From: Octopus sinensis
Taxonomy: Eukaryota
Direction: 5' to 3'
DNA: 14,077 nt
Assembly (NCBI RefSeq): GCF_006345805.1
Contig: NW_021826015.1
Location: 1 to 14,077, forward strand
Shown here: in pieces, positions 4,313 through 4,539 of the stretch
Numbering within the stretch: the stretch's first letter is position 1
Layout: the number at the start of each line of letters is the position of its first letter
The notes under the pieces: generated by a model
What the model was told of the DNA's origin: nothing
Seen by the model: only the letters and a program-made list of their open reading frames with translations
Databases searched by the model: none
Made by a program: the position numbers and the translations under genes

Positions 4313-4329
4313 ATTTATTATATAGAAGG

Positions 4330-4379
4330 AGCTTCTACAGGACTAGTACTGTTTCATTCAGAGAAATCTTCAGGAAGCT
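4330..4379 (-). ncRNA. Minimal type I hammerhead ribozyme motif with intact core
   Basis: Minus strand: agcttc CTGAAGA t-ttc-tct-gaa-t GAAA cag tACTAGTc ctg TA gaagct. Stem I 6 bp, stem III ACAG/CTGT with palindromic ACTAGT loop, GUA cleavage triplet (cut between 4336 and 4335). Stem II is weak, with U-U at its base. Confidence 0.72.
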
Positions 4380-4420
4380 TCCTGAAGATTTCTCAAAACA
4401 GTACTAGTCCTGTAGAAGCT
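4376..4420 (+). ncRNA. Defective mirror copy of the hammerhead motif
   Basis: agcttc CTGAAGA tttctc AAAA cag tactagtc ctg TA gaagct: TGAATG is replaced by A, which removes half of stem II and the G of GAAA. Confidence 0.6.
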
Positions 4421-4502
4421 CCTTCTATATAATAAATTAATTTTACTCTGCTATGTATTGAGTACCTTACTTACTGTGGTTAACCCCGAATCAACCCGGA
4501 CC

Positions 4503-4539
<37 letters not shown>

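What the first reader, a model, noticed from the sequence alone, without database searches (positions are those of the whole stretch)
4313..4505. Spacerless 125-bp palindrome made of two back-to-back hammerhead ribozyme motifs
Seen: arms 4313-4377 and 4378-4437 are perfect complements except CATTCA versus A. The minus strand reads as a complete type I hammerhead (CUGAAGA, GAAA, GUA site, 6-bp stem I, palindromic ACUAGU loop III) followed by AATAAA. The only asymmetry in the palindrome falls in stem II/GAAA of the plus copy, and both motifs draw their stem I 5' strand from the symmetry centre. Established: Penelope-like elements carry minimal hammerheads with palindromic loop III in their pseudo-LTRs and often have inverted partial pLTR copies. 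Inference: this is a non-coding Penelope derivative whose transcript could fold either as a ribozyme (possibly a dimer) or as a roughly 60-bp hairpin that would be a Dicer/ADAR substrate.
Basis: partly seen in the sequence, partly recalled or inferred. Interest (0 to 1): 0.75.

Follow-up and report, generated by a model that had tools for sequence, protein, structure and literature searches.

The report
Head-to-head stub of Penelope retrotransposon
This palindrome is one of several hundred back-to-back double copies of the front end of a protein-coding Penelope-like jumping gene, likely made when both ends of a cut TA repeat copied the element's RNA back to its predicted capped start and were then joined, so the predicted hammerhead ribozymes are probably passengers locked inside a long hairpin.

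Summary
The palindrome and the minus-strand hammerhead motif are real. They are not a stand-alone RNA device. The 137-nt unit is the pseudo-LTR end of a Hydra-clade Penelope-like element with an RT + GIY-YIG ORF, linked in 15 of 15 loci tested. The genome holds at least 2,835 arms and 452 exact junctions like this one. In 94 of 94 head-to-head pairs, one arm ends at +67-72 and the other carries the tail to about +137. Arms stop at the first base of stem I far more often than upstream. A TATA box stays at -29 across diverged subfamilies, and an extra G often precedes +1. This fits two sense-strand cDNAs running off a capped 5' end and joining through AGCT (inferred). There is no excess of ends at the ribozyme cut site. 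In the insertion the hairpin (-92 kcal/mol) outcompetes the hammerhead fold (-6). The plus copy's core is broken by a deletion not shared by the family. The layout is known for PLEs, and this scan has noted the same thing on other DNA (AI notes, read after my analysis).

The parts
4313..4379 (-). Short arm: element positions +1 to about +68, with a complete type I hammerhead motif (one T lost in loop II against the family)
   Evidence: short arms end at +67 to +72 in 41 of 41 measured
4330..4379 (-). Hammerhead motif: stem I 4379-4374 with 4335-4330, CUGAAGA 4373-4367, stem/loop II 4366-4356, GAAA 4355-4352, stem III and loop 4351-4338, predicted cut between 4336 and 4335
   Evidence: descriptor scan; cleavage not tested
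4376..4379 (.). AGCT shared by both arms: predicted first four bases of the transcript and the microhomology that joins the arms
   Evidence: 452 exact junctions; stop hot spot; TATA at -29 in parent copies
4376..4437 (+). Long arm, palindromic part: hammerhead copy with a 6-nt deletion in loop II that removes G12
   Evidence: alignment to a family copy
4438..4505 (+). One-sided tail (about +69 to +137), part of the parent's 5' UTR; the ORF's ATG lies at +183 in the tandem copy L068
4084..4312 (.). Left (TA)n-rich target
4506..4543 (.). Right (TA)n target
   Evidence: 40 of 50 long arms run straight into pure ATATATAT

Best explanation
The feature is the shortest common insertion product of a Hydra-clade Penelope-like retrotransposon, likely formed by two target-primed cDNAs that copied the sense RNA back to its predicted capped 5' end and were joined head to head through AGCT. 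Shown: the parent and its domain order, the (TA)n target, the strict pairing of one short and one long arm, the stop hot spot at +1, the TATA box at -29 and the excess G before +1. Inferred steps: (1) transcription starts at the A of stem I, so the hammerhead is the first 55 nt of the mRNA; (2) the endonuclease cuts both strands of (TA)n; (3) one end primes at about +68 and the other at about +137, which makes the one-sided tail; (4) when the 5' copy of the unit is the template both cDNAs run off at the cap and give this ~195-bp stub, and when the 3' copy is the template they give longer fold-backs with scattered stops; (5) the 3' ends anneal by microhomology and are filled in. The stub lacks the TATA box and is probably dead on arrival; read-through RNA would fold as a long hairpin, not as a ribozyme.
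For: Parent: 15 of 15 loci picked by the endonuclease end carry the same hammerhead unit 2.8-4.7 kb downstream; L068 is pLTR-ORF-pLTR; 12 of 15 have an inverted second copy. ORF motifs RWR, DKT, CxCX5C, CxxC and CxH match the Hydra description; Atlas neighbours include RVT_1/GIY-YIG clusters at 0.96. Pairing: 94 of 94 pairs are long plus short (locus L080 counted in two sets). Hot spot: of 102 arms from the first 100 listed matches on C1, 24 stop within -1..+5 (21 exactly at +1), 16 within -145..-2 and 62 pass -145; per base 0.039 against 0.0014. Base before +1 genome-wide: T 1,617 (parental), A 399 (mostly perfect palindromes), G 308, C 32. The junction that needs only 1-nt overlap without a cap G, but gets 2 nt with it, is found 226 times; the junction with 2-nt overlap and no G 29 times; loss of one A in a control AA is 1 of 148, too rare to explain this. 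Some junctions carry G before both arms (L086, L019, L030). TATAAAT stays at -28 to -30 in subfamilies whose spacer to +1 has diverged, while the branch-point-like motif is lost. In vitro, another PLE cuts and extends both strands from two internal starts that bound the tail, on uncleaved RNA (PMC11167929). Untemplated G marks capped templates in L1 and SVA (PMC4859970).
Against: No RNA 5'-end data: the runs laid were contigs and only guessed to be RNA. Most G junctions can also be read as a G from the opposite arm: 21 of 30 were templated by an 8-mer test, 2 clearly untemplated, 7 unresolved; the inserted-junction set (G 21 of 32 arms) is biased by G-selected searches. Older subfamilies have A or C at -1, not the pyrimidine of a textbook initiator. 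The window's own junction is the perfect type and shows no G. The tail is about 69 bp against 30-40 bp in other PLEs and the 3' region about 3 kb against elements under 3 kb. One RNA or two as template is not resolved. Target-site duplications cannot be read in (TA)n.
Confidence: 0.72

Rival explanations
1. Same PLE origin, but the palindrome forms by self-priming or snap-back on one cDNA or on an antisense RNA template, as proposed for Adineta Penelopes.
For: Proposed in PMC3846280 for junction palindromes (passages). The two arms of one insertion often share private variants (L194, L208, L127/128). Seven copies join the end of one arm to the 3' strand of stem I through 6 nt.
Against: Either arm can be the longer one and each has its own stop point, including ORF-bearing arms joined to short inverted ones. 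Junctions with inserted bases and a G ahead of both sense starts fit two separate sense cDNAs. A snap-back does not by itself give the fixed second end at +68.
Confidence: 0.13
2. The stop point is a 3' splice site or another processing site at the 5' edge of helix I, as in D. virilis Penelope, not the transcription start.
For: The window's subfamily has a branch-point-like CTAAT, a pyrimidine run and TAG just ahead of stem I; in D. virilis the intron end maps to helix I (PMC4209133).
Against: The branch-like motif is absent from the largest subfamily and the pyrimidine at -1 from older ones, while TATA is kept. No shared upstream exon sequence appears in 30 G junctions, and arms keep the AG.
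Confidence: 0.08
3. The ~195-bp palindrome is a non-autonomous element or retrozyme that multiplies as a unit and works as a ribozyme or hairpin RNA.
For: 452 identical junctions; three or more subfamilies make the same stub; the junction occurs in contigs of a run that may be RNA (X8).
Against: 27 junction types among 91 insertions (set enriched by my searches); a continuum of arm lengths; stubs carry the markers of each parent subfamily; no TATA in the stub; no tandem arrays seen; hairpin -92 against hammerhead -6 kcal/mol.
Confidence: 0.05
4. Assembly or library fold-back artefact.
For: Small contig; both arms show single-base homopolymer losses; the 6-nt deletion may itself be a consensus error; no second copy of the flank to compare.
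Against: Hundreds of loci on large contigs with fixed biological ends; the same junction in contigs of a separate study.
Confidence: 0.02

Closest known systems
Hydra clade of Penelope-like elements (Craig et al. 2021, PMC8557442), including Hydra-1_Obim
   Same: Single ORF, RT then C-terminal GIY-YIG; RWK-like, DKT, CxCX5C, CxxC and CxH motifs; hammerhead; (TA)n target.
   Different: A different family from Hydra-1_Obim by eye (protein and hammerhead differ; not aligned by tool). About 3 kb of low-complexity 3' region and a ~69-bp tail.
EN+ PLE insertions with inverted 5'-truncated pLTR, junction palindrome and one-sided tail (PMC3846280; PMC8557442 Fig. 2 legend)
   Same: Head-to-head geometry, tail on one side only, microhomology joins, TATA in the pLTR (noted for Pen2a_Av).
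   Different: Here the fold point is a hot spot at one base with an excess G, and long-short pairing was 94 of 94; the published passages I read propose antisense self-priming or EN resolution instead.
Poseidon of Anolis (PAc) in vitro (Frangieh et al. 2024, PMC11167929)
   Same: Two internal RT starts bounding the tail, both strands cut and extended, AT-rich target, hammerhead cleavage not needed.
   Different: In PAc the hammerhead overlaps the ORF start; here it is upstream (ATG at +183). That paper's parts I read do not explain inverted junctions.
Non-LTR retrozymes and minimal PLE hammerheads (PMC4209133; bioRxiv 10.64898/2026.07.22.740005)
   Same: Type I hammerhead derived from a PLE pLTR; palindromic loop III can pair two monomers in cofolding.
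   Different: Retrozymes are direct tandem arrays; this is an inverted pair with one motif per strand.

Membership tests
EN+ Penelope-like element | Single ORF with PLE-type RT and GIY-YIG endonuclease linked to the repeat | tested here: met
   (parent copies, not the window copy). Pfam itself gave no RT or GIY-YIG hit on the 481-aa piece; NCBIfam a weak RT hit, E 0.005.
EN+ Penelope-like element | pLTR from partial tandem, or inverted 5'-truncated copy | tested here: met
   1 direct and 12 inverted of 15 loci
EN+ Penelope-like element | One-sided tail | tested here: met
   94 of 94 pairs; about 69 bp, longer than the 30-40 bp described
Hydra clade | RWK, DKT, CxCX5C linker, CxxC and CxH around E and N | tested here: met
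   RWR, SDKT, CNCHDKTTC, CDLC, CMH read from translations against the text
Hydra clade | Insertion into (TA)n; hammerhead present | tested here: met
Hydra clade | Placement in the clade by RT phylogeny | not tested
   Reference proteins were seen only as text in the paper's supplement; no tree built
Hydra clade | Generally short (<3 kb) | tested here: not met
   About 5.5 kb between pLTRs in L068; a tendency in the paper, not a strict criterion
Type I hammerhead ribozyme | Core CUGANGA, GAAA, NUH with three stems | tested here: met
   Minus arm and family; recurrent subfamily changes fall in N7, loop II and loop III (patterns fixed part of the core). Not met for the plus arm.
Type I hammerhead ribozyme | G10.1-C11.1 pair and Rfam model match | tested here: not met
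   U-U at that place with a 3-bp stem II; no Rfam hammerhead hit
Type I hammerhead ribozyme | Self-cleavage | not testable with these tools
   Genomic ends give little sign: starts at the cut site 11 against 8 two bases away; sequence leaving the unit right after the cut site 4 of 30 against 0 of 20 and 0 of 20 in controls, but TA overlap with the target can explain these
Non-LTR retrozyme | Direct tandem repeats each with a hammerhead | tested here: not met
   Inverted pair; no tandem array at the locus

The most novel reading that the evidence does not exclude
These stubs are a fossil record of the PLE insertion reaction: one complex (perhaps the predicted dimer) primes both ends of a double-strand cut at two fixed sites of a capped sense RNA whose first nucleotide is the hammerhead's first base, and joins the two cDNA ends. 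That would explain tail, inverted pLTR and junction palindrome in one step, replace the antisense self-priming model, and place the hammerhead as a 5'-terminal, cap-removing switch on the mRNA, not a processor of the template.
Probability: 0.5. Interest if true: 0.68.

Novelty: new member of a known kind. Interest (0 to 1): 0.42.

Why it matters
As a single locus it is ordinary transposon debris. As a family it gives counts that bear on an open question named in PMC8557442 (how PLEs form tandem/inverted structures and tails): strict long-short pairing, a one-base stop hot spot under a conserved TATA box, and a cap-like G. The family is young (copies 94-99% alike) with long open frames (up to 522 aa in one copy), so the model can be tested in vitro. 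Hundreds of perfect ~65-bp hairpins would also be a source of double-stranded RNA if transcribed (untested).

Tried and rejected
Rfam: no hammerhead match; only microRNA-type hairpin hits far below gathering scores. The RT + GIY-YIG ORF directly beside a stub in L002/L036 looked like the parent but is not: no hammerhead unit of this family follows it. Hammerhead-cleaved RNA as template: no clear excess of ends at the cut site. A pattern count meant as a control for stops at -5 (300) was confounded by subfamily differences and dropped; a position-ordered sample replaced it. Empty site or second haplotype of the locus: none found. Expression: no RNA holder listed on record; contigs of four runs guessed to be RNA cover most of the ORF and leave the reference at +1 in three runs, which may simply be genomic stubs; splicing across the upstream region was not examined with reads. 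A>G skew in run X2 cannot be read as editing. Literature searches listed no paper reporting cap-terminated head-to-head PLE stubs; the library lacks most subscription journals, and I saw only listings for most hits. Sequence look-up among earlier findings gave one unrelated note.

Full report
Observation. The two arms are exact complements around AGCT (4376-4379) except for one indel, and a descriptor scan of both strands of the window finds one type I hammerhead, on the minus strand. The plus arm has lost 6 nt including G12 compared with a family copy; the minus arm lacks one T. Rfam has no hammerhead match here or in an intact copy; stem II is short with U-U in place of the usual G-C. The feature sits between (TA)n runs on a 14-kb contig of a 2.7-Gb genome.

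Family. A search with 4378-4505 gave 948 candidates, 40 scored at 93-100%; 19 of the 40 had an adjacent inverted partial copy. An exact 22-mer of the core occurs 2,835 times, the exact 30-nt palindromic junction 452 times. Fold-backs occur at every scale, from 60-bp arms to arms of 2-4 kb.

Parent. One long arm led into the end of an ORF. Of 15 loci fetched around that ORF end (15 of the 30 loci returned), all carry the same hammerhead unit 2.8-4.7 kb downstream; 12 have an inverted second copy upstream, 1 (L068) a direct one followed by the ORF, 2 none within the stretch. [quoted passage not shown] Pfam did not recognise it; the Atlas put it at 0.96-0.98 beside clusters some of which carry RVT_1 and GIY-YIG. 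The paper's supplement lists one cephalopod Hydra family, which differs by eye. No tree was built. In L068 the ATG lies at +183, counting the A of stem I as +1, so hammerhead and tail are 5' UTR.

Two fixed outer ends. In five sets of loci, 94 of 94 head-to-head pairs have one short arm and one with the tail (L080 counted twice; some sets chosen by junction pattern; the position-ordered set alone gives 44 of 44). Short arms end at +67 to +72. Two independent random choices would give half the pairs alike. This matches the in vitro behaviour of the Anolis PLE, which cuts and extends both strands from two internal starts bounding the tail and uses uncleaved RNA (PMC11167929, parts 1-2 of 4 read).

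The inner end. Among 102 arms from the first 100 listed matches on C1 (two more arms lay in the flanks), 24 stop within -1..+5, 16 between -145 and -2 (about four of these are chance extensions of stops near +1) and 62 pass -145: 0.039 against 0.0014 stops per base. Parent copies have TATAAAT at -29. It stays at -28 to -30 in subfamilies whose spacer to +1 has diverged, whereas the branch-point-like motif of the window's subfamily is lost; L068's upstream copy keeps just the TATA region. The base before +1 is T 1,617, A 399, G 308, C 32. The junction best explained by an extra G is found 226 times against 29 for the one with 2-nt overlap and no G, and single-base loss in a control AA is 1 of 148. 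Several junctions show G ahead of both arms. Against this, 21 of 30 G cases can be read as templated by the other arm. Untemplated G is the accepted mark of a capped template in L1 and SVA (PMC4859970, passages). I infer that +1 is the capped start; no RNA 5' end was seen.

The ribozyme. Recurrent subfamily differences fall in N7, loop II and loop III, which fits selection on the fold in the parent, with the caveat that my patterns fixed part of the core. The first 60 nt fold within 1.2 kcal/mol of the hammerhead; with the tail, or inside the palindrome, stem I is not predicted (hairpin -92, hammerhead -6 kcal/mol). Two monomers cofold through loop III, but a head-to-head pair supplies only one motif per strand. 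Starts at the cut site are 11 among 2,051 arms against 8 at a control two bases away; departures right after the cut site are 4 of 30 examined (of 49 hits) against 0 of 20 (of 34) and 0 of 20 (of 91), weak and open to TA overlap. Cleaved RNA is at most a rare template. Cleavage itself is untested.

Mechanism. Likely: the endonuclease cuts both strands of (TA)n; one end primes at about +68, the other at about +137; on the 5' copy of the unit both cDNAs reach the cap; the ends anneal through AGCT and are filled in. The stub lacks the TATA box. Rivals are antisense or snap-back self-priming (PMC3846280, passages), a splice-site stop as in D. virilis (PMC4209133, parts 1-2 of 4; promoter passages of PMC2377424), a self-spreading unit, and artefact. 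Contigs of four runs from four studies, guessed to be RNA, show the junction in one run and departures at +1 in three: this speaks against an assembly artefact of the family but does not show a start.

Comparison and novelty. Inverted pLTR, tail and junction palindromes are described for PLEs; opposite-strand hammerhead pairs 100-700 bp apart were noted in Schistosoma. It is not a retrozyme (bioRxiv 10.64898/2026.07.22.740005, part 1 of 5). An octopus repeat paper has no mention of hammerheads or palindromes in its main text (PMC13282606, passages; supplements not read). Seven searches listed no paper with the cap-terminated twin-priming account. After my analysis, a word search showed that this scan reached like readings on other DNA; these are unchecked AI notes and lend no support. 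Verdict: a new family of a known clade, an ordinary locus, and a useful, testable mechanistic signal; interest 0.42.

Noticed in passing
L036:1077-2383 (G000:C3): A 5'-truncated PLE of another type (RT part, CX4CXXC linker, GIY-YIG; Pfam RVT_1 E 0.0085, GIY-YIG E 0.0032) sits in the same (TA)n right beside a Hydra stub; two families appear to share targets.
   Followed up: partly
window 10520-12075: A second long inverted structure: arms 10595-10756 and 11840-12001 are 100% complementary, with further complementary sequence outside short TA runs; possibly another fold-back insertion of a different element.
   Followed up: no
window 6011-6618: Inverted arms of 267 nt, 94% complementary, 74 nt apart, built from a common dispersed repeat around an unrelated inner hairpin.
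   Followed up: no
window 8132-8359 (-) and 8683-8943 (+): Frames that resemble the C-terminal end of a LINE-type protein (recalled resemblance; Pfam gave no hit); a similar frame lies in L012.
   Followed up: partly
L132 (minus, near 2923 on that strand) and L082 (minus, near 8618 on that strand): Two other type I hammerhead-like motifs of unrelated sequence turned up in flanks.
   Followed up: no
L099, L104, L109, L110, L014, L153: Some arms begin with T or G in place of the +1 A, often with G in front; this could be misreading of a modified first base of a capped RNA (speculation).
   Followed up: no
L246/L247 and L253: Two insertions in which both arms begin at or within a base of the hammerhead cut site; the best hint that cleaved RNA is sometimes copied.
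   Followed up: partly
L068:5690-8024, run X2: 14 of 19 difference places are A>G on the laid strand; could be editing or a species difference, cannot be told from contigs.
   Followed up: no
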